A stretch of 64,000 nucleotides of DNA, taken from the IMG/VR virus record IMGVR_UViG_3300005529_000030, positions 8,597-72,596 of that record, one strand, 5' to 3'. The notes below the pieces were generated by a model, which was not told the origin of the DNA, ran no database searches, and saw only the letters and a list, made by a program, of their open reading frames with translations. Both the position numbers and the translations under genes were made by a program. Below, piece after piece: positions 4,757 through 17,176 of the stretch (positions within the stretch are counted from its first letter, which is position 1; the number at the start of each line of letters is the position of its first letter). Origin of the DNA: a virus.

Positions 4757-7525
4757 ATGCCTTTGGCGGGATTAGAAAAAGGTAAAAATAATTTTATTAA
4801 TAAGCGTATAAACGACCAAAAAAGTTTTTGGCCAGGATACGTTAAAAAATGGGATGAAGAAAACGGCGGAAAAAGATTTCGTTCAGAGATAATGTCTTTG
4901 TCGGAACTTTGGAAGCTTTATTTGACGGGAGTTAGTACGGAGCTTTCAGCGGAAGAAGAAGCTCGTGGTAAAAAACCCGACAAGATAGACAGAATAAGTC
5001 AAGTTGTTCCTATAAAAGCATTTGAGTTACCGGGCCGATTTCACGAGCCATACATAACCGAAGACGGGACTAGAATTCACAAGGAAGGTTGGGGATACCT
5101 TCATTTCGACCAATGGTTATATGCGCGAGACCAAGCCAGAAAGGATTTGTTTTGGCTGTGTAAAGAAGTCTTCAGTATGGACTTGTATGAAGATGTACAT
5201 AGGGTTGTATGCAATCAGTTTGTGAGTAAAAATTTCGACGGTGTTTATGAAGAAAATTACTCTCTAAGGGACTTTCATCGCGCTTTGTCTAATCAGAGTC
5301 GCGTTCCTACGATTTGGGCGGAAACGAAGCCATATGTGAATGGATATTTTCCTGAAAAAACTCTTGACGATTATGGAAATTATATAAGAGACCCAATAGA
5401 AGAAACGAAACAAACAAATTTTGCTAAAACGATGATTCTTTTAGACCCTCGTGGGTTTTTTAAATCATCTATAGACGTTGCTGATTGTATTCAGTGGATT
5501 ATTAATTGCCCCGACATAAGAATTTTGATTGTTAGCGGAGTTAATAAACTAGCGGCTCAATTTATGGTGGGCGTTAAGCAAGGGCCGAAAGGAAAGTCAT
5601 TCTATCTTCCGAGAGGGGTTCCGCCGTCTCCGTTTCATTATTTATTTCCTGAATTTGTAGTTCGCGGAGTGGATGGAACTTCAAAAGAAGATTTCCGCGT
5701 TAACGAAAATATAAAAAAACATCTAAGTTTGGACCCAACTCTCGGAATTATTTCAGTGGGTTCGTCTTTATCGGGTTTTCACTGCGACGTTTTGAAGTTT
5801 GACGATATAGTTACAGACGATAACTGTCTAACAGAAGATGCGCGAGAAGCCATTCTTTTGAAAGCAGACGGCGCGGTCAATTTGTTAATGGATTGGGGTT
5901 GGCACGATATTATCGGAACTAGATATTATCCCGATGATTATTACGGCCAAACAGAGGCAACTCACAAGAAAGACCCTGAGATGTTCAATCTTAAATTCTT
6001 TCAAAGGGCCTGTTGGACCGTCAAGGAAGAGTTTAAGGACGTAGAAGCTAGAAGTTTATATGACCTTACGGAAGATATGGTCACGTTGACTTTTCCTCAG
6101 AAGCACCCTAAAGGTCCGCATTATTCTTGGTTGGAGCTAAGAGCCAAACTTAAGAATGAAAAAAGTTTTAGATGTTTTCCTGCTGGGTCAAAAGTTCTCA
6201 TGGGTGATTGGACTGAGAAAGCAATAGAGGATATTAGGCCCGGTGACGAAATAATAGGTTTTGATAGCGGCTTAAAGAAGGCTGTTGTTACTCATGTTCA
6301 CGAGAAGCGAGATTTAGTTTCCAAGTTTCTAACAGAACAGGGGCGTACTATCTTCTCGACAAGAGACCATAAATTTCTTCGACCTAATACAGGAAAAAAG
6401 AAAGTTTATGGACCTTTGAAAATAGGAACTAAAGTTGTTTCTGTTTATAGCCCGTCAGGAGAATTGCTTTCCAAACAATGCAGTCGAGATATGGATTGGC
6501 TTAGAGGCGGCTCATCTATAGATAAAATTATTTCTATAGAAGATTTGAACGAGCAGCCTGTTTACACTCTCACGACAACTACAGGAAATTATGTTTGCCA
6601 AGGTTTTGCTGTGGCTAATTGTCAGCAGCTTAATCAGCCTGTTTGGGGCGAAGAATCCACAATTAGTTTCGACAGGCCGTTATTGGAATCTAGGAAAACT
6701 AAAACTTTATCGGAAGTTTTGTCTGTGCCCGGATATGTTTACGGCGCCATTGATTTGGCAAAAGAGAATAAACAGTTTTCCGATTATACCGCTCTAGCTA
6801 TAGGAAAAGTGTACCAAGAAGGAGTCGGTATAATTCGTCCGGATGAAAACGGTAATCTTCCAGAAAGACCCGACGGAAAATGGGTCATGGTCATATTGGA
6901 CGTGGAATTCGGAAAGTGGTCTCAAACTGAGATAGCTAACCGAATTGCTAAAATGAACGATAAATGGCGACCTAAAAGATGGTACGGAGAAGACCTTGGC
7001 GGATTGCAGACCTTCAAAGAAAAAATAATAGAAGTGTCAAAAACAACTTATGGTCATTGGCCGTATATTCCGTGGGTTACACCCGATAACAACGAAAATT
7101 CAAAGAGAAATAGAATTAAGGGCGTTGAAATTCTTCTTAGAGCGTCAAGACTATATTTTCTAATTGCGCCTTGGAATGTGGATGTTTTTGAACAGCTTGA
7201 AAATTACAAAGGTCAAAAAAGCACTCGTTATTCTAAAGACGATGTGCCCGATGTAATTTCCCTTCTAACGAAGTTTATTCCGTCTTTGGTCCCTCTATCG
7301 AAAAGAGAGATGGAGCAAGTGGCAATTCAAAGAGAGACGGAATACAAAGAATTGCTTAGAAGAGAAATAAAGAAAGTTGTTTTCGGGGACGACGGCGGGG
7401 GTTTCGGAGTGAATAATATTAATAGAATATGGACAGAAGTGGAGTCTCCCAAAGAAGACACTAATCGGGGTCCGATGGCGGACATTAGCCGAAAATTTTT
7501 CGGCGGTAATGGAATGCGAGCATGA
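4757..7525 (+). CDS. terL: Terminase large subunit with mini-intein
   Basis: Walker A-like PRGFFKSS, Walker B LKFDD, IIGTRY coupling motif, RNase H-like AIDLA...SDYTA...KDDVPD; lies upstream of the portal. Confidence 0.9.
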   Translation: MPLAGLEKGKNNFINKRINDQKSFWPGYVKKWDEENGGKRFRSEIMSLSELWKLYLTGVSTELSAEEEARGKKPDKIDRISQVVPIKAFELPGRFHEPYITEDGTRIHKEGWGYLHFDQWLYARDQARKDLFWLCKEVFSMDLYEDVHRVVCNQFVSKNFDGVYEENYSLRDFHRALSNQSRVPTIWAETKPYVNGYFPEKTLDDYGNYIRDPIEETKQTNFAKTMILLDPRGFFKSSIDVADCIQWIINCPDIRILIVSGVNKLAAQFMVGVKQGPKGKSFYLPRGVPPSPFHYLFPEFVVRGVDGTSKEDFRVNENIKKHLSLDPTLGIISVGSSLSGFHCDVLKFDDIVTDDNCLTEDAREAILLKADGAVNLLMDWGWHDIIGTRYYPDDYYGQTEATHKKDPEMFNLKFFQRACWTVKEEFKDVEARSLYDLTEDMVTLTFPQKHPKGPHYSWLELRAKLKNEKSFRCFPAGSKVLMGDWTEKAIEDIRPGDEIIGFDSGLKKAVVTHVHEKRDLVSKFLTEQGRTIFSTRDHKFLRPNTGKKKVYGPLKIGTKVVSVYSPSGELLSKQCSRDMDWLRGGSSIDKIISIEDLNEQPVYTLTTTTGNYVCQGFAVANCQQLNQPVWGEESTISFDRPLLESRKTKTLSEVLSVPGYVYGAIDLAKENKQFSDYTALAIGKVYQEGVGIIRPDENGNLPERPDGKWVMVILDVEFGKWSQTEIANRIAKMNDKWRPKRWYGEDLGGLQTFKEKIIEVSKTTYGHWPYIPWVTPDNNENSKRNRIKGVEILLRASRLYFLIAPWNVDVFEQLENYKGQKSTRYSKDDVPDVISLLTKFIPSLVPLSKREMEQVAIQRETEYKELLRREIKKVVFGDDGGGFGVNNINRIWTEVESPKEDTNRGPMADISRKFFGGNGMRA
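6173..6619 (+). mobile_element. 149-aa mini-intein in TerL (no endonuclease)
   Basis: FR|CFPAGSKVLMGD...TRDHKF...VYTLTT..GNY...AVAN|CQQ. Confidence 0.85.
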
Positions 7526-9630
7526 CAGAACCGTTAAACGAGCACGCGCATAATGTATTAGAACAAAGAGTGATTACACCTGTAGCAGATATTACTTCTG
7601 CGGAAATACACAAAGATAAAGAAACAGGAACGTATCAGTTTTCAGATAGGGCCGCATTAAAATTGGTTCTAGATGATGCTTCTTTGGCTGATAATTATGC
7701 GAATATCAATCAGTGGGCATCGCAATGGGCGCAATCATTAATTCTCCTTCAGAGTCCGCAATCAGCGGCGGCTTTCGATGGAGTATTTATGAGTTCCGTT
7801 CCGAAGTTTACTCTATCGAATCATATAAGCAGTATTGTGCCTAAAATTATGGAGGGTTTGTTTTATGAAGACCCTCCTTTTTTACTTAGACCCAGACCAG
7901 GAACTAAACAGGAACTAGTAAGAGCTAAAACTGCCTTATTTTCCGCCCAATTGTGGGACATGAAGTTTGAGGAAGAGGTTGAGGCGGGTTTAGAGCAAAT
8001 GGCCCTATTCGGAACTTGCATATTTAAATGGGGATATTTAGAGCGAGATGACACTGTTAAAAAATACAGGAGAAAATCGGAAAAAGTTCCCCTTACTAGT
8101 GGTTTATTAAATGATTTAATTGATACTCCAGATAGTGACGATTATGAGATATTGACCGAGGTCGTTAAGATAAGTCGCCCATGGTTTAAATGTACTGACA
8201 TTCGTACAGTTTTGGTTGACCCCGGCTGTCGTGTTGGAGATATACGAAAGGCGAAGTGGGTAATTTATCGTGACTACGCCACATTTGATGATTTAAATGC
8301 TCTTAGAGAAGTTCCCGGCTACGACATCCCCGATGAAGAAGCTTTGAAATCATTCTTTCTATCGAATGAAATGTCGGGGCCGGATAATATTACCATGACA
8401 ATTCCAGAAGGCATGCGTGGATATTTACAGCAAGCCTTGCCTAGGAATTTCAGAACTTCTGCCGACCATTTACAGAACCCAATGGAAATTTTAGAGCGTT
8501 GGGATGCTGATAAAGTTATTGTCGTATTGTCATTCGGCGGAAAAAATATTCTTATCCGAAACGAGCCTAATCCTTACGGAAAAATTCCGTTTTATAGTGC
8601 AAATTGGCGTAATTTAGTTGATTCTTTTTACGGTCAGGGATTGGGACAATTAATAGGAGCCGAGCAAGTTGTAGAACAGGGTGTGACAAATCTTTCTCTT
8701 GATTTACTAGCTTATGGTTTGCAGCCAACGGCGGTTAGAAAGAAAGGGTTCAATGTTCCTACCCAAATGGTTAGATGGAAGCAGGGTGGAATTATTGACG
8801 TTGATGACGACGTAGATAAAGCATTTAAGTTCTTGCAAATGCCGAATGTCCCTGGTGAGGCTTGGGCATTTATTCAGCAAGCTCAGGGTACCGCTCAACA
8901 AACATCGGGCGCAAACGAACAGGTTATGATGGGCGCAGGCAGCGCAGGAATTAAAACAACAGGAATGCGTACTGCGACAGGAGCTTCGGCCATCATTCAG
9001 GCTAATGCGTCTAGATTGGATGGTCCTAGCGGTCGTTTTGTAAGACAAGTATTTGTTCCTTGGTTGTATCAGATGGATGAACTTAATAATGACCTTCTTC
9101 CTACGTCTGTTTTAAGAAGAGTTTTAGGCGAAGAGTTGGGCAATGAATACATGGTTGACCATGTAGAATTTAGAAACGCTAGATTTGAATATGAAGTTTT
9201 GGCTGGCGGTCATTTGGGGGCTAAAAAAGAAATGGCCCAATTTTTGCCGATTGTCGTTCAGCTTTTGAACAATCCTACATTTGTGAAAAACGTAAACGAT
9301 GCGGGTTATCAATTTAATGCGGCGGCAATCTTTAAGGCTTTTGCTGATGCGGCAGGATGGAAGTTTAGTCAGGACTTCTTAGAAAAGATGACGCCGGAGC
9401 AACAGCAGAAATATGAAGCAAATTCTCCTGCTGCTTTGCAAGTAGCACAAGCGCAGATAGCGCAACAATTACAGACTCAGAAATTTGAGCAAGAAAAAGA
9501 ACTAGAAGACCAACGTCAGCTTGGCAAGGCGGGAGCCGAAGTTCTTCGTCAAGCCACCGAACACAGTCTTCAAAGTGAAATAGGCAGAGAACCGCCGCCG
9601 GGGAGCTACGGTTTTGAAACAGCACTTTAA
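7522..9630 (+). CDS. Portal protein
   Basis: 702 aa after TerL; P22/N4-like portal features (NPYGKIPF, FYGQG, RTATGAS); Gln-rich C-terminal barrel. Confidence 0.85.
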   Translation: MTEPLNEHAHNVLEQRVITPVADITSAEIHKDKETGTYQFSDRAALKLVLDDASLADNYANINQWASQWAQSLILLQSPQSAAAFDGVFMSSVPKFTLSNHISSIVPKIMEGLFYEDPPFLLRPRPGTKQELVRAKTALFSAQLWDMKFEEEVEAGLEQMALFGTCIFKWGYLERDDTVKKYRRKSEKVPLTSGLLNDLIDTPDSDDYEILTEVVKISRPWFKCTDIRTVLVDPGCRVGDIRKAKWVIYRDYATFDDLNALREVPGYDIPDEEALKSFFLSNEMSGPDNITMTIPEGMRGYLQQALPRNFRTSADHLQNPMEILERWDADKVIVVLSFGGKNILIRNEPNPYGKIPFYSANWRNLVDSFYGQGLGQLIGAEQVVEQGVTNLSLDLLAYGLQPTAVRKKGFNVPTQMVRWKQGGIIDVDDDVDKAFKFLQMPNVPGEAWAFIQQAQGTAQQTSGANEQVMMGAGSAGIKTTGMRTATGASAIIQANASRLDGPSGRFVRQVFVPWLYQMDELNNDLLPTSVLRRVLGEELGNEYMVDHVEFRNARFEYEVLAGGHLGAKKEMAQFLPIVVQLLNNPTFVKNVNDAGYQFNAAAIFKAFADAAGWKFSQDFLEKMTPEQQQKYEANSPAALQVAQAQIAQQLQTQKFEQEKELEDQRQLGKAGAEVLRQATEHSLQSEIGREPPPGSYGFETAL

Positions 9631-9644
9631 AAAAGGATTAAACA

Positions 9645-9971
9645 ATGAATCAAACCCCGTTATTAGCCGATGAACTTACGGCTGCTCAACGTGCTGCATT
9701 AGCATCGCTGATACAACATCCTGGATGGGCTGTTGTGGAAGAAATGCACATGGCTGCGTGTAGGAGAGCGACGGAAGATGTTTTAAAGCAAGACCCCGGA
9801 TTGGAGGGCGCGGAAAAGAAAATTGTCGCCCTTCAACTACGGGCTAGAGAACGAAATGAATTTTCTCTTTTAATTCTTGGCTCTGTTAATTGGCACGCGA
9901 AAGCGTTAGCCGTATTAGAGCAAGAGAAAGAGATAAAGATGGACAATCCAATAATAAAAGGACTCAAATAA
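9645..9971 (+). CDS. Small head-module protein between portal and scaffold
   Basis: AAGGA RBS; L.SLIQHPGW pattern; synteny. Confidence 0.6.
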   Translation: MNQTPLLADELTAAQRAALASLIQHPGWAVVEEMHMAACRRATEDVLKQDPGLEGAEKKIVALQLRARERNEFSLLILGSVNWHAKALAVLEQEKEIKMDNPIIKGLK

Positions 9972-11162
9972 ATGACAGAACAACTTGCTCTTGTCCCAGA
10001 GAATATAACTTGGGATATGGTGAACGCATGGGACGGAAAAACCATGCGAAAATATATGTCTATTCCTGAGTACAGAGACGCAATTACCAAAGTAGTTGCA
10101 TCTAGGTCGTATCAAGAAATTCAAGATTTGGCCGTTAAACAAGAGGAAACGGCATCAGAAGTGAATATTGAAAATTCGGATATTTCTACTAAAGATGCTT
10201 TGGCGGCTCCCGCAGCATTGGAAGATGCTGCTTCTAGTAAAACTACTACAGACTCAGCCCCAATTGCCGTGCCTGAACCTCCAAAAAAGATTATAGTGGA
10301 GTATCAGGTCAGAGATGAAGATGGAAATCCTATTGGTAGGCCCACGCACTTAGAAGCCTACACCGAAGAAGAAATGCGAAAAAAGATAATCGAGGCGCAT
10401 GTTCAGGCGACTCGCGCATTTCATCGTTTAAAGAAACAGAAAGTACAAAGCATTCAAGAAATATCTAAACAAGACGAACCGTCTTCTACTTCCCCTCGAA
10501 CTATGACTGACGAAGAGTTGATGGCCACGTTAAAAGATTTAAGGTCAGACGACCCTCAAATTCAATTGGCGGCCCATAAAAAGTTGATGCAATCTTATGA
10601 AGAAAAGGCCAAAGCAGAACGGGAAGCCAAGGAAGCCGAGCAGCGCGAATTTGAAAGGCAGAAGCAAGTAAGTATTGAGTTTTTGAAAAGACACAAACAC
10701 GATTTTAATAATTGTCAAGCCAACGTGGATTTAATAGGCGAGTATTTTAAGGAAAATAAACTTCCTTGGACGCTTGATAATTTGGAAGTAGCTTTTATAG
10801 CTCTTGAAGATAGGCTGGCACCTGTAGCGACGCCAGCGGTAGAGGTATTACCAGAGCCTAATCCGCCTGTTCCTCAACCAACAGCTACGACAACAGCGGC
10901 GGCGGTTGTGCAGCCGACACCGACTGTGCCTGTCGCTCCTCCGCAGCCAATTAATTCGGTTGCGGTTCCGAGACCAGGAGTCAATGGGGGTATTGTTCCG
11001 GGACAAACTTCAGCACCGCGCCCGTCGCAAAAACCTCAAGGACTAACGATGGAAGAAATCCTTTCTTGGGATGCTCAAACCATGCGAGCGAAAATGCGTT
11101 CGCCGCTACGTGCAGAAATAGAGCGCGTAACAATGGAAGCGCGACTAAGAAGAGGACGGTAA
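9972..11162 (+). CDS. Putative capsid scaffolding protein
   Basis: Coiled-coil and Pro-rich; directly upstream of the major capsid exon 1. Confidence 0.65.
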   Translation: MTEQLALVPENITWDMVNAWDGKTMRKYMSIPEYRDAITKVVASRSYQEIQDLAVKQEETASEVNIENSDISTKDALAAPAALEDAASSKTTTDSAPIAVPEPPKKIIVEYQVRDEDGNPIGRPTHLEAYTEEEMRKKIIEAHVQATRAFHRLKKQKVQSIQEISKQDEPSSTSPRTMTDEELMATLKDLRSDDPQIQLAAHKKLMQSYEEKAKAEREAKEAEQREFERQKQVSIEFLKRHKHDFNNCQANVDLIGEYFKENKLPWTLDNLEVAFIALEDRLAPVATPAVEVLPEPNPPVPQPTATTTAAAVVQPTPTVPVAPPQPINSVAVPRPGVNGGIVPGQTSAPRPSQKPQGLTMEEILSWDAQTMRAKMRSPLRAEIERVTMEARLRRGR

Positions 11163-11207
11163 TCCTAAGCGGCGCGTAACGCCGACTATAGCACGAGGGA
11201 ACTTCAC

Positions 11208-14200
11208 ATGGCTGGAGGCCCAAACCCGGCAATTGCTAATGTCGGGAATATATTAACGGCTCAAAGCATCCTCAAGTAAGGGGCTGTTTCGAGGGAAACA
11301 GAAATCTTCTCTGATTGACTTGGAACCTGAAATGGCGACAAGGCGGAAGCGCAAGCACCGTGAGAGACTAAGCGAGAAGACACCTAAAAGGTGATACGAT
11401 AGTCCGTTCTAATAGGAAAGAAAACTGTTAGGGAAAAACGCTTTGATAAGGAGCTAATCCCGAACTTATTTTTATAGAGTGAAATGCCGAAATTTGATAA
11501 TCTTACTGGAGTGAAATTCGGACGCCTGACGGTTATAAGCAGAGCACCAGACGCCGTTTCTAAATCTGGTTTCGTATATACAAGATGGAATTGTTTGTGC
11601 GATTGCGGAAAAGAGAAAACGATATATGCTGGTTCTTTAAAAAGAGGAGTAACCGTTTCTTGCGGTTGCCAACTTAAACAAGTTTGGCGACGAATAGGTC
11701 TTTCCAGTATCAAACACGGCGGCAGTTCAAAAGATGCGTCGGTAGATAAAAAAATACAATTTCAAATTTTACAACATATCCGTCAGCGAGCCAGAGCCAA
11801 CGGATATGAAACTGATTTAGAATTATCGGATATACCTGAAGTTCCTGATGTTTGTCCGGTTCTCGGAATTAAACTTAAAAAAGGAAAAGGTCCTCTATCT
11901 GATTTTTCTGTATCTATTGATAAAATCAATCCTAATTTACCGTATCTTAAAAAATACAAAAATAATTTGCGATTGATTTCATATAGAGCTAATCGTATTA
12001 AAAACGACGCTACTATTGATGAATTGGAAAAAATCATTCTATATATAAAAATGAGCCGCTCTGAAGAGAGCGAGAATCTTCTCTGATTGACTTGAAACCT
12101 GAAATGGCAACAAGGCGGAAACCGAAAAGGTGCCGTGAGAGACTAAGCGAGAAGACGCCGAAACGGCGATGCGATAGTCCGCTCTAACAAGAATAAAATT
12201 GTTAGTTAACAACAGGAAAGGGAGAAACGGATGCATTTGTTGTTGCCGCCGAGCGTCGTGTTCAACCGAATAACACTGGTATTAACCGCCAGTTTTTTCA
12301 GTACAATACGCTTGTAGGTGACACAACCCAAGCTGGTGATGGTGTTATCGGAGCACCAGAGTTCATTGGTCAGATTTCATCTCCGGCTCAACTGGGCGAA
12401 TGGAATAACTATACCAACTTTAGCGCGTTTGTTGTTGCGAGCGCACTAGATGATTTGGTTGGAAACAGCGCAGTTGAACTTGGGTAAAACTTGATGCCCA
12501 AGTAAAATCACGTTATATCAGATTAGGTCTTTTTCTAAAAAGATGAGTCTGAGACATTGTATATTGCCTTAAGGCAGAAGAGGAACTAGAAGTGCAAAGA
12601 AAATCTTGGCCGTATGTGGCCGGAATATTGGATGCCGAAGGAACTATTGTTATTGGCGAAACAAACGGTGGTTTTTATTCTAAAATAAAAATTTCCAACA
12701 CCAACAAAAAGTTAATGAAGTGGTTGGTTCAAAATTTTGGAAATGTTTTTTATAAAAACCTAAATTCAAGAAGTAATAGAAGTGTTTTATATGAATGGAA
12801 TTGTTTAGCCAATCAACAAGAGGCTTTTCTTTTAGGCGTTTTGCCGTTTTTATTGGTTAAGAAACCTCAAGCTTTGACTTTGCTTGAGTTCAGAAGAACC
12901 GAATCGTTGGAAGAAAAAAAGAAGTTGTGCGACAGAATAAAACAGCAGAATCAGCGTCTTATTGAGAATAAAACTTCTTTTATTAATTCTCATAACAAAG
13001 ACCGTTTTAAATATGCTGCCGGATATATGGATGGAGACGGTGGTTTTTATTTCGGAGATTCGAGCCATACAAGAATATATCTAACGAGCATAGATTTTAT
13101 AATTATAAAATGGTTTTTAGCTAATTTTGGCGGTAAATTCTATAAATACAATTCTTCTAATGAAAATCATTCTGACTACTTTAGGTGGGTTCTTAGCGGA
13201 CGGAAAAATAAAAAGTTGTTTTTGCTTGGAACTATCCCGTACATGATTTTGAAGAGGGAGCAAGCAAAAAATCTTTTACAAATTATAGATTCTAGTTCTG
13301 TTCAAACGACTAATACACGTGAGATTTCCTCGTCGGAAATCAAGAAAGAGTCTTAACTTATTGGTGACAATAAGAGCTTAATTTCTGTGAAGAAAATTAA
13401 CTAAAAACATTTAATCAGGCTGGCCAAAGCATCTCTCAGTTATACGCTGCCGTTGCAGACAGCGCAGCAACTGTAGATTCTCAGGTAAACCAAAGCAGCT
13501 TGTTAACCTCTCCATTTGTTTTGGATTTGGCTACGTTACGTGAATTGAAACAGCAGTTAGTTTCAAAGAACGTACTACCAAACCGAAATGGAAGGTTCGC
13601 AGGAGTTATTTCGCCTAACGTTTTGGGCGATATTTTCAACTCGACCACAGTGAACAACTCCATCAACTAAGGTGGACATTTAACGAAAGTTAAATTGAAT
13701 AAATCAGTTCTAATTGACTCGAACCCTGGGATGGGAACGAGGGCCAAGCGAGACGACGCAGGCTGAGAGAACAAACGAACTGACTCCCAATAGGGAGATG
13801 CAATGTTCCGTTCTTGTGAGAATCATTCTTTTGATTGGAGAAAAATTCGGTCGTTTACTAGTTATCAAAAAAGCGTTTTCCAAACATGGACGCTCTCGTT
13901 GGATTTGTCAGTGCGATTGTGGTAAAACTTATAACGTTTTAGGTCACAACCTTCGCAAGGGAAAAACTAAAAGTTGTGGATGCTTGCGAAAAGAGTCGGC
14001 ACGTAATTTAATCAGTTTCGCCAAGGAAAAAAACTTTTTAAGTCCTGGCGAAGCGGCCTTTAACGTTATGTATTATACGTACAAACAGCACGCAAATGAA
14101 CGAGGATTGGATTTTAGTTTGGAAAAAGATAGTTTTCGGCATTTAACACAAATGAATTGTTATTATTGCGGAGACGAGCCGAAGGATTTTTTCAAGCCTA

Positions 14201-14816
14201 AAGCTCCTAATGGCGGATACCTAAGTAACGGAATAGACCGAAAAGATAACGCGATGGGATATACAATTGAAAATTGTGTTCCATGTTGTCGAATCTGCAA
14301 TCAAATGAAAAGTAATAAATCATACGAAGATTTTATTACTCGTTGTTGGAAAATCACAAGAGGCCACAAGCCCTCTACTTTGGTAGAGTAACAACAAGCG
14401 TTGACCTGTGGAAATATGCAAATATGGATAAGTTCGATAAAATCGCTGGCGCAGACCAGAAGATGGACATCGAACTTCCCGGCACTTCTATCGTATTACG
14501 ACAGACGCCTTTCGTAACTACGACGCCTAATTATTCTGGAACGACAAGCACCGCATATCGTACCTATATCTTCGGACAGTACGCAATGATTGGTGTTTGG
14601 CAGAATGTACCAGGCGATACCGATTTGGGAGACGGAGATTGGCGCACTATTGACTGCAAGGTAGTTGAGAATGCACCAGCGTCTGCGTTTGACCCGGTTG
14701 GTACAATCGGAAGCTGGTGTTCTTATAGATTCCACCAGACGGTAACTCTACCGCCTGCTCGTGGGGCAAACACTCAGCGCCTTCGCTTCATAGATAGCGT
14801 ACCTGCTATTCAGTAG
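11208..14816 (+). CDS. Major capsid protein (N4 gp56-like), spliced from exons 11208-11272, 11441-11467, 12217-12485, 13414-13663 and 14399-14816; 342 aa
   Basis: Exons sum to 1029 nt in one open frame: MAGGPNPAIANVGNILTAQSIL/FDKELIPNL/KGETDAF...AVELG/YQAGQSIS...VISPNVLGDI...NNSI/VDLWKYA...DPVGTIGSWCSYRF...PAIQ*; GAGGG RBS; follows the scaffold gene. Confidence 0.88.
11273..11440 (+). ncRNA. Group I intron 1 of the capsid gene (168 nt, no ORF)
   Basis: P1 with U.G (CCU^C/GGGG), P2 CTGTTTC/GAAACAG, P3 TCTTCTC/GAGAAGA, P7 GAGACTA/TAGTCC, P9.0 GTT/AAC, terminal G11440. Confidence 0.88.
11468..12216 (+). ncRNA. Group I intron 2 of the capsid gene, with an HNH ORF 5' of the core
   Basis: P1 ACUU^/GAGU; core 12075-12186 nearly identical to intron 1; P7 GAGACTA/TAGTCC; terminal G12216. 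Confidence 0.88.
11484..12086 (+). CDS. Intron-encoded HNH-type homing endonuclease
   Basis: KFGRLTV..WNCLCDCG..SCGC N-terminal domain; CPVLG..SIDKINP..N.RLISYRANRIKN. Confidence 0.8.
   Translation: MPKFDNLTGVKFGRLTVISRAPDAVSKSGFVYTRWNCLCDCGKEKTIYAGSLKRGVTVSCGCQLKQVWRRIGLSSIKHGGSSKDASVDKKIQFQILQHIRQRARANGYETDLELSDIPEVPDVCPVLGIKLKKGKGPLSDFSVSIDKINPNLPYLKKYKNNLRLISYRANRIKNDATIDELEKIILYIKMSRSEESENLL
12486..13413 (+). ncRNA. Group I intron 3 of the capsid gene, with a LAGLIDADG ORF; terminal nucleotide is A
   Basis: IGS CUUGAUGCCC pairs 10/10 with ligated exons GGGU|AUCAGG; P3 TCACGT/ACGTGA; P7 ACGACTA/GAGTCT; P8 GATTTCC/GGAAATC; P9 with GTGA tetraloop. Confidence 0.85.
12592..13356 (+). CDS. 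Intron-encoded double-motif LAGLIDADG homing endonuclease
   Basis: YVAGILDAEG and YAAGYMDGDG motifs; two repeated halves. Confidence 0.9.
   Translation: MQRKSWPYVAGILDAEGTIVIGETNGGFYSKIKISNTNKKLMKWLVQNFGNVFYKNLNSRSNRSVLYEWNCLANQQEAFLLGVLPFLLVKKPQALTLLEFRRTESLEEKKKLCDRIKQQNQRLIENKTSFINSHNKDRFKYAAGYMDGDGGFYFGDSSHTRIYLTSIDFIIIKWFLANFGGKFYKYNSSNENHSDYFRWVLSGRKNKKLFLLGTIPYMILKREQAKNLLQIIDSSSVQTTNTREISSSEIKKES
13664..14398 (+). ncRNA. Group I intron 4 of the capsid gene, with an HNH ORF in P9
   Basis: P1 UCCAU^/GUGGA; P3 TCAGTTC/GAACTGA; P7 GAGAACA/TGTTCC; P8 CTCCC/GGGAG; terminal G14398. Confidence 0.85.
13798..14391 (+). CDS. Intron-encoded HNH homing endonuclease (start uncertain, 13798-13831)
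   Basis: KFGRLLV..WICQCDCG..SCGC; CYYCG..NGIDRKDN..GY..ENCVPCC..CN.MK. Confidence 0.85.
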   Translation: MQCSVLVRIILLIGEKFGRLLVIKKAFSKHGRSRWICQCDCGKTYNVLGHNLRKGKTKSCGCLRKESARNLISFAKEKNFLSPGEAAFNVMYYTYKQHANERGLDFSLEKDSFRHLTQMNCYYCGDEPKDFFKPKAPNGGYLSNGIDRKDNAMGYTIENCVPCCRICNQMKSNKSYEDFITRCWKITRGHKPSTLVE

Positions 14817-14842
14817 TAACTTCTTTTTTTTCAATAACTTAC

Positions 14843-14912
14843 AGACGAGTTAGTTACTCGTCTTAGTCGAGGGGCGCTCTTATGACGCGCTCCTCGGCGT
14901 TTTTCATAGGGA
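14843..14912 (+). promoter_or_regulatory. Twin hairpins after the capsid gene; second loop can pair with the RBS of the downstream endonuclease
   Basis: AGACGAGT/ACTCGTCT; GTCGAGGGGCGC/GCGCTCCTCGGC followed by GTTTTT; loop TCTTATGA is complementary to TCATAGGG (14904-14911). Confidence 0.55.
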
Positions 14913-14918
14913 ATAATA

Positions 14919-15377
14919 ATGCAATTACCCGATTCTCTTAGTTTAGCTGGGTTAAAGCCGGGAACCAAGGAATATGCTCGAATGACGGGTCGTAGATATT
15001 ACTATCGTCACCGTGACAAGGAAAAGGCCCGCACTAAAATTTGGCGATTGTCTAATCCCGATAAATATAAAAAATGGGTTGAGAAAAACAGAATTAAATT
15101 AATACAAGCGGCTCGGCGACATGACCATCAAGTTACCTCTGAATGGTTTGAATTAAAATTGAAACAACAAAACGGTCGGTGTGCCATTTGTAATAAAATT
15201 CCAAAAAGATTTGATATAGACCACAACCATTCCTGTTGTCAAGGAAGGAAAAGTTGTCATAAATGTAATCGTGGTTTGCTATGTCGAAGTTGTAATACTT
15301 TTATAGGGTTGGCAAAAGAATCTACAGATTTTCTTTTGTCCGCTATTAATTATCTACAACAGTATAATAAGGATTGA
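14919..15377 (+). CDS. Free-standing endonuclease VII-family HNH endonuclease
   Basis: QNGRCAIC...IDHNH...RGLLCRSCN..IG. Confidence 0.85.
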   Translation: MQLPDSLSLAGLKPGTKEYARMTGRRYYYRHRDKEKARTKIWRLSNPDKYKKWVEKNRIKLIQAARRHDHQVTSEWFELKLKQQNGRCAICNKIPKRFDIDHNHSCCQGRKSCHKCNRGLLCRSCNTFIGLAKESTDFLLSAINYLQQYNKD

Positions 15378-15378
15378 T

Positions 15379-16014
15379 ATGGCTTATATAAAGCCCCCAC
15401 TGCAAAATTTGCCTAATCCTTGGGAAGGAAGGCACGATTTCAAGGTCACGCGAGAAACAATAAGAAAACTTCTCGCGGGCGGCACCCCCAATTGGGTGAA
15501 GTGGCCGAAAGACTATAGAGCAATGGCTCAGGAGGCGTACTTAGCTGATAAAGAAGTATCAGATAAGATGATGTCTCAGTTCAAGATGGAAGACCAAGAG
15601 CTTCTGTTGAATGAACAGGCGCGTAAGGTCAATCCAATACGTACTAGAGATTTCATTGATAAGTTACGCAGAAACGGAGTCAAGTGCTACACCATTGATA
15701 ACGGCTTCCCACCGTCAACAGTGGCACTATGGGCTTTCAAACCAGGAACTGATTGTGTCGTACCAGTGTGCTATCTCCAAGTGCCCGCCATGTACGAATG
15801 GTCAGTCCTGCGACTCGACAAACGCGGATTGCCTAATGGAGAGGCATTTCGCGGTTGGCGAACAGTCGAATCCGAACTTATCAAGAAAGGAATCATCTCG
15901 GAAGAAAAAGCTAACGAGATTTTTGGTAGGGTGGTTGATGGAGAAGTCAGCCATAGATTCCGAAGAACTATGTACTATTTTCGTAATAGGCGAGAATTAG
16001 CATACAGTTCTTAA
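15379..16014 (+). CDS. Hypothetical protein (head/tail module)
   Basis: AAGGA RBS; 211 aa. Confidence 0.65.
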   Translation: MAYIKPPLQNLPNPWEGRHDFKVTRETIRKLLAGGTPNWVKWPKDYRAMAQEAYLADKEVSDKMMSQFKMEDQELLLNEQARKVNPIRTRDFIDKLRRNGVKCYTIDNGFPPSTVALWAFKPGTDCVVPVCYLQVPAMYEWSVLRLDKRGLPNGEAFRGWRTVESELIKKGIISEEKANEIFGRVVDGEVSHRFRRTMYYFRNRRELAYSS

Positions 16015-16060
16015 AGGTCCGTGACCTATATTTTTGGGCCGTGCCCAAGAGGAAAAATCA

Positions 16061-16591
16061 ATGAGTGATAATCAAAATAAAGCCCCTCAATCACCCGACA
16101 AGGCAGTATCGTCGGATTTGCTTCAAAGTCTTGTTCAGCTTCTTCTAGAGGAACGACGCGAAGCATTAGAAAGAAGAGAGGAGGCCAAAAAAGCGTTTGA
16201 GGCTAGGCGAAAGCAAAGGGAAATAAACGCCGCGCAGAACTTAGCCGATTTAAATCGCATACAATCAATTTGTAGTCATAGAAAAGGCGGAAAAGGGCTA
16301 AAAGGACCTAAAGTAGATTATGCCGTCTCATTCCATACTTTTATCAATGGCGAGAGTTACATTCGTTGTCTGATTTGTGGTATGAAGTGGAAGAACCGAG
16401 ACACCCAAGAGTTTTTGTATCGTCGCGGTAAGAAGATTCCTAATCATACGGGAATGGGTTGGCGCGAGGCATATAACATGGTTCTAGATAGTTCTAACAC
16501 CGCAACATCATCTGAAGTACAATTGACAGCAACAACGGAACCTTATGAAATTCCAGATTTTGAAAAGAGTCCGCATGCGGTTGAAATCTAA
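16061..16591 (+). CDS. Hypothetical coiled-coil protein with a putative Zn site
   Basis: GAGGA RBS; CSH...CLIC. Confidence 0.6.
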   Translation: MSDNQNKAPQSPDKAVSSDLLQSLVQLLLEERREALERREEAKKAFEARRKQREINAAQNLADLNRIQSICSHRKGGKGLKGPKVDYAVSFHTFINGESYIRCLICGMKWKNRDTQEFLYRRGKKIPNHTGMGWREAYNMVLDSSNTATSSEVQLTATTEPYEIPDFEKSPHAVEI

Positions 16592-16594
16592 AAC

Positions 16595-16626
16595 ATGGGG
16601 GCTGATTTACGTCAGCCCCATATTTC
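16595..16626 (+). terminator. Putative intrinsic terminator
   Basis: ATGGGGGCTGA-TTTACG-TCAGCCCCAT followed by ATTT. Confidence 0.45.
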
Positions 16627-16657
16627 ACAGATAAATTTTAAGTCGAGTTGGCTAAAA

Positions 16658-17176
16658 ATGGAAATTACGGATTTGGAAAAAAGAGTGGCTCTTTTAGAGC
16701 AGAAAGTAAAGAGCTATGAAAAAGATTCTCGTCGCGGTTTGGCAGGTCCTATTGGACCTCGCGGACCTCAGGGACCTCAGGGACCTCAAGGCGAGCGAGG
16801 AATCCAAGGAGATAAAGGCGACACAGGTCCGCAAGGTCCGCAAGGTCCGAAAGGTGACACAGGTCCGCAAGGTCCGAAAGGCGACACAGGTCCGCAAGGT
16901 CCGCAAGGTCCGAAAGGCGATAAAGGCGATAGAGGCGACATAGGTCCGCAAGGTCCGAAAGGCGACATAGGTCCACAAGGTCCGAAAGGCGATAAAGGCG
17001 ATAGAGGCGACATAGGTCCACAAGGTCCGAAAGGCGATAAGGGAGAACCAGGAAGGGACGGCAAAGACGGACTTTCGGGGCCGAGAGGGCCAGCGGGAAA
17101 CATTGAAGCCGCAGTTCAGGCGGCGATTGATGCCGTTATGAAACTTTTGAAAGAAAAAGGGTTGATAAATGGCTAA
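16658..17176 (+). CDS. Collagen-like fibre protein
   Basis: About 40 consecutive Gly-X-Y triplets ([12 protein letters not shown]). Confidence 0.85.
16755..17040 (+). repeat. Tandem 9-nt-unit repeats encoding collagen triplets
   Basis: GGACCTCAG, GGTCCGCAA and GGTCCGAAAGGCGAC repeats. Confidence 0.9.

What the first reader, a model, noticed from the sequence alone, without database searches (positions are those of the whole stretch)
11208..14816. Hidden major capsid gene broken by four group I introns
The ORF track shows no capsid between scaffold and tail, only three endonucleases and a fragment. Seen in sequence: four group I cores, each with a U.G 5' splice site. Removing 11273-11440, 11468-12216, 12486-13413 and 13664-14398 joins five exons (65, 27, 269, 250 and 418 nt) into a stop-free 342-aa ORF with N4-gp56-like motifs (FDKELIPNL, LGYQAG, VISP, DPVG). 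Established: the classic phage group I introns (T4 td/nrdB/nrdD, SPO1 pol) sit mostly in DNA-metabolism genes. Inference: the most abundant virion protein needs four splicing events per mRNA, and 71% of the locus is intron. This could be a homing hotspot or a splicing-gated control of capsid output.
Basis: partly seen in the sequence, partly recalled or inferred. Interest (0 to 1): 0.92.

Follow-up and report, generated by a model that had tools for sequence, protein, structure and literature searches.

The report
Capsid gene split by four introns
The main shell-protein gene of this soil phage is cut into five pieces by four self-splicing RNA introns, a layout already described in other phages, though one of the four ends in an unexpected letter.

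Summary
Joining 11208-11272, 11441-11467, 12217-12485, 13414-13663 and 14399-14816 gives a stop-free 342-aa ORF. It aligns without a gap at any junction to uninterrupted 340-345 aa homologues and is 88% identical to the nearest. That homologue folds as an HK97-type capsid protein. The 72.6-kb record holds no other copy.

Introns 1, 2 and 4 belong to one group I family. A covariance model built only from introns in related phages hits them at 134, 135 and 91 bits. The P3-P9 core, with the P3/P7 pseudoknot, shows strong covariation. Intron 3 belongs to a second, LAGLIDADG-bearing group I family. It ends in A where its relatives end in G, which remains unexplained.

In related soil phages, 31 of 80 capsid loci carry 1-3 such introns at about 15 sites. 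This supports the homing-hotspot reading.

Rfam does not detect these introns. No RNA data exist, so splicing is inferred.

A five-fragment capsid gene is already published for a crAss-like phage (PMC7886860). I class this as a new member of a known kind. Other first-stage notes on this same stretch also flagged the terminal A and the 168-nt intron.

The parts
11208..11272 (+). MCP exon 1 (65 nt, ATG at 11208, ends inside codon 22)
11273..11440 (+). Intron 1, 168 nt, no ORF, family-1 group I core at 11302-11433; in-frame stop 2 codons after the 5' junction
   Evidence: 133.6 bits, E 1.4e-27
11441..11467 (+). MCP exon 2, 27-nt micro-exon (encodes the conserved FDKELIPNL stretch)
11468..12216 (+). 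Intron 2, 749 nt, family-1 core at its 3' end (12074-12207)
   Evidence: 135.3 bits, E 5.9e-28
11484..12086 (+). Intron 2 ORF, 200 aa, HNH/EndoVII-like homing endonuclease; 49-54% identical to ORFs of same-site introns in L031 and L061
12217..12485 (+). MCP exon 3 (269 nt)
12486..13413 (+). Intron 3, 928 nt, second group I family. P1 12479-12485/12496-12502, P10 12490-12495/13414-13419, P3 12508-12513/13317-13322, P7 13308-13311/13349-13352, P8 13323-13329/13335-13341, P9 13357-13363/13368-13374, P9.1 13378-13386/13391-13400. Last base 13413 is A.
   Evidence: (16.3 bits, E 0.076); helix positions read
12592..13356 (+). Intron 3 ORF, 254 aa, double-motif LAGLIDADG endonuclease; its 3' end overlaps P7-P3'-P8-P7'
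13414..13663 (+). MCP exon 4 (250 nt)
13664..14398 (+). Intron 4, 735 nt, family-1 core at its 5' end (13701-13835)
   Evidence: 90.7 bits, E 3.6e-18
13714..14391 (+). Intron 4 ORF (open frame from 13714; first ATG at 13798, giving 197 aa), HNH-type endonuclease, distantly related to the intron 2 ORF (37% over 106 aa)
14399..14816 (+). MCP exon 5 (418 nt including the stop)

Best explanation
The stretch 11208-14816 is the phage's only detectable major capsid gene. It encodes an HK97-fold protein of 342 aa and is interrupted by four group I self-splicing introns. Three belong to one compact family: intron 1 has lost its endonuclease gene, while introns 2 and 4 carry HNH-type homing endonucleases. 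The fourth belongs to a related family that carries a LAGLIDADG endonuclease. The pre-mRNA must lose all four introns by the usual two-step, guanosine-initiated transesterification to yield a translatable capsid mRNA. Each intron has a stop codon in the capsid reading frame within four codons of its 5' junction, so unspliced RNA gives only short peptides. The introns arrived by endonuclease-driven homing between co-infecting relatives, for which this capsid gene is a recurrent target. Shown here: the exact gene architecture, the capsid fold of the intron-less homologue, the RNA core structure by covariation, and presence/absence polymorphism in relatives. Inferred: actual splicing, endonuclease activity and homing. 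How intron 3 completes exon ligation with a terminal A is open.
For: The joined ORF is stop-free at 342 aa. It aligns with no gap at any junction to 16 uninterrupted homologues and is 88% identical over its full length to P0001 and P0004. DNA junction contexts match the intron-less alleles L006-L010. P0001 matches the own record only at the exon pieces. The AlphaFold model of P0001 with alignment A4 has pLDDT 86 and pTM 0.80. Foldseek gives 329 PDB matches at E<=0.001, with phage capsids listed first (8h89, 9vye, 9e99). PHROG 1357 'major head protein' scores E 8e-6. All 28 automatically mapped insertions in related loci allow a T|...G| boundary. The hand-drawn P2-P9 structure, with the P3/P7 pseudoknot, on 22 introns is 91.1% paired against 74.1% in shuffles. 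48 of its 54 pairs change on both sides, 0 of 500 shuffles reach the observed values, and slid controls give 35-42%. Model R1, built from 19 non-window introns, hits window 12074-12207, 11302-11433 and 13701-13835. It finds nothing else in the 72.6-kb record. R1 gives 41 strong hits in 31 of 80 related capsid loci, all on the gene strand. The same core splits a ribonucleotide reductase gene in Roseobacter phage CRP-118 and a P22-like coat gene in MW202674. For intron 3, P1 has 7 pairs with U.G, P10 has 6 pairs, and P3, P8, P9 and P9.1 are complementary in the window and change compensatorily in L086, L087 and L090. In those three loci the homologous introns also sit in capsid homologues.
Against: No RNA evidence exists: no RNA run holds the stretch and the DNA contigs show no joined form. 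Rfam's curated group I model does not match at any threshold tried, and I ran no positive control for its sensitivity. Intron 3 lacks the terminal G. Its relatives have G at the aligned position, while its G-binding pair looks unchanged (my reading against the Tetrahymena site described in PMC10020454). Standard chemistry therefore predicts poor exon ligation. The structure was drawn from two of the aligned sequences, which inflates the slid-control contrast. The fold was predicted for a homologue 88% identical to the window's product, not for the joined product itself. CheckV rates the record 70% complete, so a second capsid gene in a missing part cannot be excluded.
Confidence: 0.86

Rival explanations
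1. The gene is functionally broken at intron 3. The terminal G has mutated to A, exon ligation fails, and this genome is a defective or helper-dependent variant.
For: The last base of intron 3 is A, while the homologous introns in L086, L087/L088 and L090 end in G. Seven of 9 distinct family-2 ends from the pattern scan also end in G. All 28 mapped family-1 introns end in G. The P7 G-C pair next to the bulge is unchanged (one search read).
Against: All five exons are intact and 88% identical to intron-less homologues. P1 and P10 of intron 3 are perfect and the LAGLIDADG ORF is open. Contigs of 4 of the 11 listed runs were laid. They come from three studies, match the stretch with no differing letter in 3751 bases, and one has word depth 71. 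That is hard to reconcile with a dead phage. No second capsid gene is in the record.
Confidence: 0.08
2. Intron 3 uses the next in-frame G (13419) as its 3' end. This would give a 340-aa capsid protein in which three conserved residues are replaced by one.
For: G13419 lies 6 nt downstream and keeps the frame (read). From recall, Tetrahymena terminal-G mutants can use nearby cryptic sites; I checked no paper on this.
Against: The six bases 13414-13419 pair with 12490-12495 as P10 (6 of 6). They encode residues that are invariant or nearly invariant in 43 homologues. The aligned intron ends of relatives fall exactly at 13413.
Confidence: 0.05
3. The insertions are free-standing endonuclease cassettes, and the capsid protein is made as separate polypeptides, or the gene is a decaying pseudogene.
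For: Three of the four insertions carry endonuclease ORFs. Split phage genes made as separate polypeptides exist (recalled).
Against: Pieces of 21 and 9 aa, with no start codons, cannot be subunits. A structured RNA core with covariation occupies each insertion. Intron 1 has no ORF at all. The exons show no frameshift or stop.
Confidence: 0.01

Closest known systems
MCP gene of crAss-like Zeta-group cMAG OLRF01000054 (Yutin et al. 2021, PMC7886860; passages read)
   Same: [quoted passage not shown] It was found in a metagenome and breaks ORF-based annotation.
   Different: That phage is a gut Bacteroidetes-associated crAss-like phage; this one is a soil phage with an SU10-type portal. According to the passages I read, that paper identified introns by searching for signature protein domains. 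Here the RNA cores were modelled, tested by covariation and mapped to the nucleotide. I could not see its Fig. 7 or its supplements.
Mycobacteriophage LittleE capsid intron (Pope et al. 2013, PMC3706429; passages read)
   Same: An intron carrying an HNH endonuclease sits in the major capsid gene, with a U at the exon end and a G at the intron end. Intron-less alleles exist in relatives.
   Different: LittleE has one intron, and its splicing was proven by RT-PCR and N-terminal protein sequencing. Here there are four introns and no RNA or protein evidence.
Small ORF-less group I introns of Jug jumbo phages (PMC12880540; passages read)
   Same: These are short ORF-less group I introns (about 206 nt on average) that fragment essential phage genes. 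Several can sit in one gene, and they are mixed with HNH and LAGLIDADG endonucleases.
   Different: The Jug introns were found with subtype covariance models that are not available here, and 37 of 76 were confirmed by metatranscriptome reads. The family here escapes Rfam's model and is concentrated in a single gene of this genome.
Classic phage group I introns (T4 td/nrdB/nrdD, SPO1 DNA polymerase, Twort orf142): recalled, partly listed in PMC3706429
   Same: The splicing mechanism and homing-endonucleases are shared. Stop codons in the host gene's frame lie just inside the intron. Twort orf142 also has several introns in one gene.
   Different: Those introns sit mostly in DNA-metabolism genes. 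From recall, the T4 introns carry the extra P7.1/P7.2 helices of subgroup IA; in family 1 here only one base separates P3' from P8. I did not determine the subgroup.

Membership tests
Group I self-splicing intron | 5' exon ends in U that forms a U.G wobble with the internal guide sequence (P1) | tested here: met
   All four upstream exons end in T. The guide pairings are UCCU/GGGG, ACUU/GAGU, CUUGGGU/GCCCAAG and UCCAU/GUGGA, read; intron 3 was checked by script (7 of 7).
Group I self-splicing intron | Intron ends in G (omega-G) | tested here: not met
   Met for introns 1, 2 and 4. Not met for intron 3, which ends in A at 13413. Sliding the boundary by one base also gives A. Relatives have G at that position. 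I therefore file intron 3 as working like a group I intron, with one defining feature failing.
Group I self-splicing intron | Conserved core P3-P4-P5-P6-P7-P8-P9 with a P3/P7 pseudoknot, supported by covariation | tested here: met
   Family 1: 54 pairs are 91.1% paired, 48 change on both sides, and 0 of 500 shuffles reach the observed values. The independent model R1 hits introns 1, 2 and 4. Intron 3: only P9 and P9.1 were tested on an alignment (13 of 17 pairs with double changes, 4 sequences). P1, P3, P8 and P10 were checked for complementarity in 4 introns. P4-P6 remain tentative.
Group I self-splicing intron | P7 guanosine-binding site: a G-C pair next to a bulged nucleotide | tested here: met
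   Alignment columns 144-190 are G-C in 22 of 22 sequences. Column 143 is unpaired. The flanking pair 142-191 is A-U in 11 and G-C in 11. This layout matches the Tetrahymena site described in PMC10020454. Intron 3 has A13306-U13353, bulged C13307 and G13308-C13352 (read).
Group I self-splicing intron | Match to the curated Rfam model Intron_gpI (model name and accession RF00028 recalled) | tested here: not met
   No match at gathering score on 64 kb. No match at E<=10 on 4.1 kb, on the 189 nt around intron 1, or on a 231-nt relative. I ran no positive control. Subtype models used in recent papers were not available.
Group I self-splicing intron | Guanosine-dependent self-splicing, or spliced mRNA observed | not testable with these tools
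   No RNA run holds the stretch.
HK97-fold major capsid protein | HK97 fold | tested here: met
   The model of P0001 (88% identical to the joined product) has pLDDT 86. The top PDB matches are the GP4, Pan3 and N4 capsids, E 6e-13 to 2e-12, TM 0.57-0.69. The joined window protein itself was not folded.
HK97-fold major capsid protein | Profile match to a capsid family and position in the head module | tested here: met
   PHROG 1357 scores E 8e-6 for P0001 and 1e-6 for P0116. Pfam gives no match. The gene follows an SU10-type portal (7522-9630) and a 396-aa ORF (9972-11162), in the same order as Tunturi_3.
LAGLIDADG homing endonuclease (intron 3 ORF) | Two LAGLIDADG motifs or a family profile match | tested here: inconclusive
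   Pfam LAGLIDADG_3 scores 21.6 bits, just under its 22.5 cut-off. Homologues at 56-62% identity carry PF00961 and PF14528. Two D-x-E-G / D-G-D-G type motifs are visible.
Intein (considered and rejected) | Insertion is open in the reading frame of the host gene | tested here: not met
   Each insertion has a stop codon in the capsid reading frame within 1-4 codons of its 5' junction (read). Two of the lengths, 749 and 928 nt, are not multiples of three.

The most novel reading that the evidence does not exclude
Intron 3 is a natural group I intron that completes accurate exon ligation with a 3'-terminal adenosine even though its guanosine-binding G-C pair is unchanged. If so, the 3' splice site in this family would be set by P10 (6 bp) rather than by omega-G. 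That would be a natural exception to a rule treated as universal, in a gene that must be expressed at very high level.
Probability: 0.3. Interest if true: 0.8.

Novelty: new member of a known kind. Interest (0 to 1): 0.45.

Why it matters
Practically, gene callers see no capsid gene in this phage, only endonucleases and fragments, so MCP-based classification and completeness estimates would miss it. The covariance model built here finds the intron family that Rfam misses. It also exposes unannotated introns in deposited genomes: the CRP-118 ribonucleotide reductase gene and the MW202674 coat gene.

Biologically, one 1-kb gene in a soil phage clade carries introns at about 15 sites, with up to four in one allele and exons as short as 22-27 nt. 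This makes it a compact natural system for studying homing-site choice, endonuclease loss and intron turnover.

Two details could matter to RNA biochemists. The first is a 168-nt core-only intron. The second is an intron whose terminal G is replaced by A in what appears to be a thriving phage.

Tried and rejected
Rfam gave no group I match. I searched the whole window at gathering score, 11000-15100 at E<=10, 189 nt around intron 1 and a 231-nt relative. The few weak hits to other families are chance-level.

The first structure prediction used a shallow alignment (A1, all rows at least 58% identical). It gave pLDDT 42 and was discarded.

A PDB sequence-profile search gave only spurious kinesin hits, E 0.002 or worse.

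No RNA holder was listed for the stretch. Contigs of four DNA runs were laid and showed no joints and no differing letters. This says nothing about expression.

I looked for close relatives of intron 3. A single-protein scan of viral contigs found none. An alignment scan found 4 distant loci. The metagenome scan found 1. The five closest LAGLIDADG homologues, P0272-P0276, could not be placed on DNA, so I do not know whether their introns end in G or A.

The promoter and terminator scan of 10900-15500 gave counts no higher than shuffles for promoters. The only terminator-like site of interest is at 14887-14900.

An intein reading, a group II reading (no GUGYG start and no AY end, read) and a split-polypeptide reading were all rejected on the sequence.

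The automated boundary search failed in two places: L075 and the window's intron 1-2 pair. In both, a micro-exon lies between two introns. Both were left out of the 28-of-28 count. L075 was resolved by eye, where both of its introns also run T|...G|.

The three most 3' sites (about codons 334, 337 and 340) come from short local alignments. Their exact boundaries were not determined.

Papers: I read passages only of PMC3706429, PMC12880540, PMC7886860, PMC2532722, PMC3984707 and PMC10020454. A term search in PMC11878797 returned nothing. Supplements were not opened. Supplementary tables and figures of PMC7886860 and PMC12880540 may list further multi-intron capsid genes. I found no paper on natural group I introns lacking the terminal G in searches, but neither search was designed to be exhaustive.
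Full report
THE OBSERVATION. ORF listing of 9000-17000 shows no capsid-sized gene between a 702-aa SU10-type portal (7522-9630) with a 396-aa ORF after it (9972-11162) and the downstream genes. The interval holds only three endonuclease-like ORFs and a 157-aa fragment. The exon lengths are 65, 27, 269, 250 and 418 nt. The introns are 168, 749, 928 and 735 nt, which is 71% of the locus. The coordinates are exact.

IS THE JOINED PRODUCT REAL? A search with the exon 5 translation, restricted to longer proteins, found 226 relatives at E<=0.001. Most are 340-345 aa long. Sixteen of them aligned with the joined product show no gap at any of the four junctions, and the conserved residues run straight across each junction. 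The product is 88% identical over its full length to P0001 and P0004. The only gaps are a 2-aa indel away from the junctions. At DNA level the junction contexts match five intron-less alleles, L006-L010. P0001 matches the window's own 72.6-kb virus record only at the exon pieces, with no second copy. CheckV rates that record 70% complete, so a copy in an unseen part cannot be formally excluded.

IS IT A CAPSID PROTEIN? Exons 3 and 5 both hit gp6 'major head protein' of Tunturiibacter phage Tunturi_3, which lies in the same portal-to-head order. Full-length homologues match PHROG 1357 'major head protein' at E 8e-6 and 1e-6. Pfam has no match. A first fold with a shallow alignment failed at pLDDT 42. 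I then collected diverse relatives and realigned them (A4, 70 sequences). The model of P0001 then reached pLDDT 86 and pTM 0.80. Foldseek against the PDB gave 329 matches at E<=0.001. The listed top matches are all phage capsids: Ralstonia GP4, cyanopodophage Pan3, coliphage N4 and Moo19. The model is of the homologue. The joined window protein could not be submitted.

INTRONS 1, 2 AND 4. Scanning IMG/VR with the capsid alignment gave 149 confirmed relatives, of which the best 80 were kept. In tblastn, many of these have the gene in two or three pieces. Of the insertions that could be mapped automatically, 28 of 28 allow a boundary with T as the last exon base and G as the last intron base. 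L075 and the window's intron 1-2 pair failed that step because of micro-exons, and were resolved by eye.

The inserted sequences share a conserved core. I wrote down a P2-P9 structure with the P3/P7 pseudoknot, starting from two of the sequences, and counted it on 22 introns. It is 91.1% paired against 74.1% in shuffles. 48 of 54 pairs change on both sides. No shuffle in 500 reaches the observed values, and slid controls give 35-42% pairing. P3, P6, P7 and P8 are 100% paired. The P7 layout is a G-C pair invariant in 22 of 22 sequences, next to an unpaired base, flanked by a pair that is A-U in 11 and G-C in 11. This is the layout of the Tetrahymena guanosine site as described in PMC10020454.

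A covariance model built from 19 of these introns, with none from the window, hits the window at 12074-12207 (135 bits), 11302-11433 (134 bits) and 13701-13835 (91 bits). It hits nowhere else strongly and finds nothing further in the whole record. The same model finds the core inside a split ribonucleotide reductase gene of Roseobacter phage CRP-118 and inside a split P22-like coat gene of MW202674. So this is a general phage group I family. Rfam's curated model nevertheless misses it at every threshold tried. I did not run a positive control for that model.

INTRON 3. The model gives only a weak hit, 16 bits at E 0.076, on 13219-13376. That hit lines up a P7 5' strand, P3', P8, J8/7, the P7 3' strand and P9. 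Relatives of the LAGLIDADG ORF keep a stretch of invariant residues exactly where the ORF overlaps P7-P3'. Three more distant homologues were obtained with their DNA: L086, L087 (identical to L088) and L090. All three sit in capsid homologues, at other codons. Each has the same build: an AAA start, a P10 strand directly 5' of a 7-8 bp P1 with U.G, then P3, P8, and two 3' hairpins, the first closed by a four-base GNGA loop. RNAalifold on the four 3' ends predicts P9 and P9.1, with double changes in 13 of 17 pairs. I accept intron 3 as a group I intron of a second family. Its P4-P6 assignment is tentative.

THE ANOMALY. The three relatives end ...ATTTG, directly before an exon that pairs with the guide as P10. 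The window ends ...ATTTA. I ran a pattern scan that allowed A or G in that place. It returned 20 stretches, of which 11 have a fully complementary P9; these are 9 distinct sequences. Seven end in G. Two have A followed by GG, and their true end was not determined. In the window, P10 (6 of 6 pairs, 12490-12495 with 13414-13419) and the protein alignment both fix the junction at 13413|13414. The G-binding pair is unchanged. I cannot explain how exon ligation proceeds. An in-frame G at 13419 would delete conserved residues and lose P10. Contigs from runs of three studies carry the stretch with no differing letter, one at word depth 71, which argues against a dead phage. Other first-stage notes on this same stretch flagged the same A. 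I had reached it independently.

HOTSPOT. The model finds 41 cores in 31 of the 80 related capsid loci, all on the gene strand and all within the capsid gene. Twenty-two loci have one, eight have two, and L017 has three. The other 49 loci have none. In P0001 numbering, the sites fall in codons 22, 29, 31, 206, 290, 309, 312, 314, 315, 317, 318 and 329, and at about 334, 337 and 340. The last three are approximate.

Sites 22 and 31, the ones used in the window, occur elsewhere both with endonuclease ORFs (L017, L060, L031, L061) and without them (L034, L076-L078, L018, L020, L074). The window's intron 2 ORF is 49-54% identical to the same-site ORFs, and the ORF in L060 is truncated. That is the pattern expected from homing followed by endonuclease decay.

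Micro-exons between neighbouring introns recur: 27 nt in the window, 22 nt in L079 and 24 nt in L075. The cores of window introns 1 and 2 are each other's nearest relatives at 85% identity. Intron 4 is at most 71% identical to any other core.

COMPARISON WITH WHAT IS KNOWN. Introns in phage capsid genes are published. LittleE has one, proven by RT-PCR and protein sequencing, and Tuc2009 is cited in the same paper (PMC3706429). Jug phages average 18.5 small group I introns per genome (PMC12880540). A crAss-like cMAG has its MCP ORF split into five fragments, with three of the four spacers encoding intron-type domains (PMC7886860). That is the same layout as here. The finding is therefore real and well supported, but it is a new member of a known kind.

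What is new is the host lineage, an intron family that Rfam does not see, the site map across a clade, the very small core-only form (168 nt; 169 nt in L034), and the terminal A of intron 3.

VERDICT. Splicing itself is inferred, not shown. Interest 0.45. The boldest reading still open is a natural group I intron that works with a terminal A (probability about 0.3).

Noticed in passing
window 13413: Intron 3 ends in A where the homologous introns in L086, L087/L088 and L090 end in G. P10 and the protein alignment fix the junction here, and the P7 G-C pair is unchanged.
   Followed up: partly
window 11273-11440; L034 6093-6261: Core-only group I introns of 168 and 169 nt. They keep P1-P9 and lack the two extra 3' hairpins that most relatives have. 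From recall, these are shorter than the roughly 205-nt Azoarcus intron usually quoted as a minimal natural example.
   Followed up: partly
window 11441-11467; L079 about 5166-5187; L075 about 2421-2444: Micro-exons of 27, 22 and 24 nt lie between two adjacent group I introns. Each must serve as the 3' exon of one ribozyme and the 5' exon of the next.
   Followed up: partly
L091 (OR420741, Roseobacter phage CRP-118) 2482-2881; L092 (MW202674) 2495-2711: Deposited genomes annotate two 'ribonucleotide reductase' CDS and two 'P22 coat protein' CDS. The gap between each pair holds a strong match to the same group I core (80 and 95 bits), so these look like unannotated introns.
   Followed up: partly
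window 14919-15377: A free-standing endonuclease VII / HNH-type gene (Pfam PF02945, E 8e-14) lies directly downstream of the capsid gene. It is a candidate further homing endonuclease. A terminator-like hairpin lies at 14887-14900, between the two genes.
   Followed up: no
window 13790-13800: The first ATG of the intron 4 endonuclease (13798) lies in J8/7, and a GGGAG just upstream is the 3' strand of P8. The ribosome site may therefore be hidden when the ribozyme is folded.
   Followed up: no
window 16595-17176: A 193-aa ORF made largely of collagen-like G-P-Q/G-P-K-G-D triplet repeats.
   Followed up: no
window 11150-14900: Contigs from soil runs of 2017 and 2020 and from a mine run of 2024 (three studies) carry this stretch with no differing letter in 3751 bases. 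That is very low diversity for an environmental phage. Several of the runs may be the source sample.
   Followed up: no
window 13300-13356: The last 19 codons of the LAGLIDADG ORF overlap P7, P3', P8 and the P7 3' strand. In relatives the ORF reads on through P9, so protein and ribozyme constrain the same bases.
   Followed up: partly
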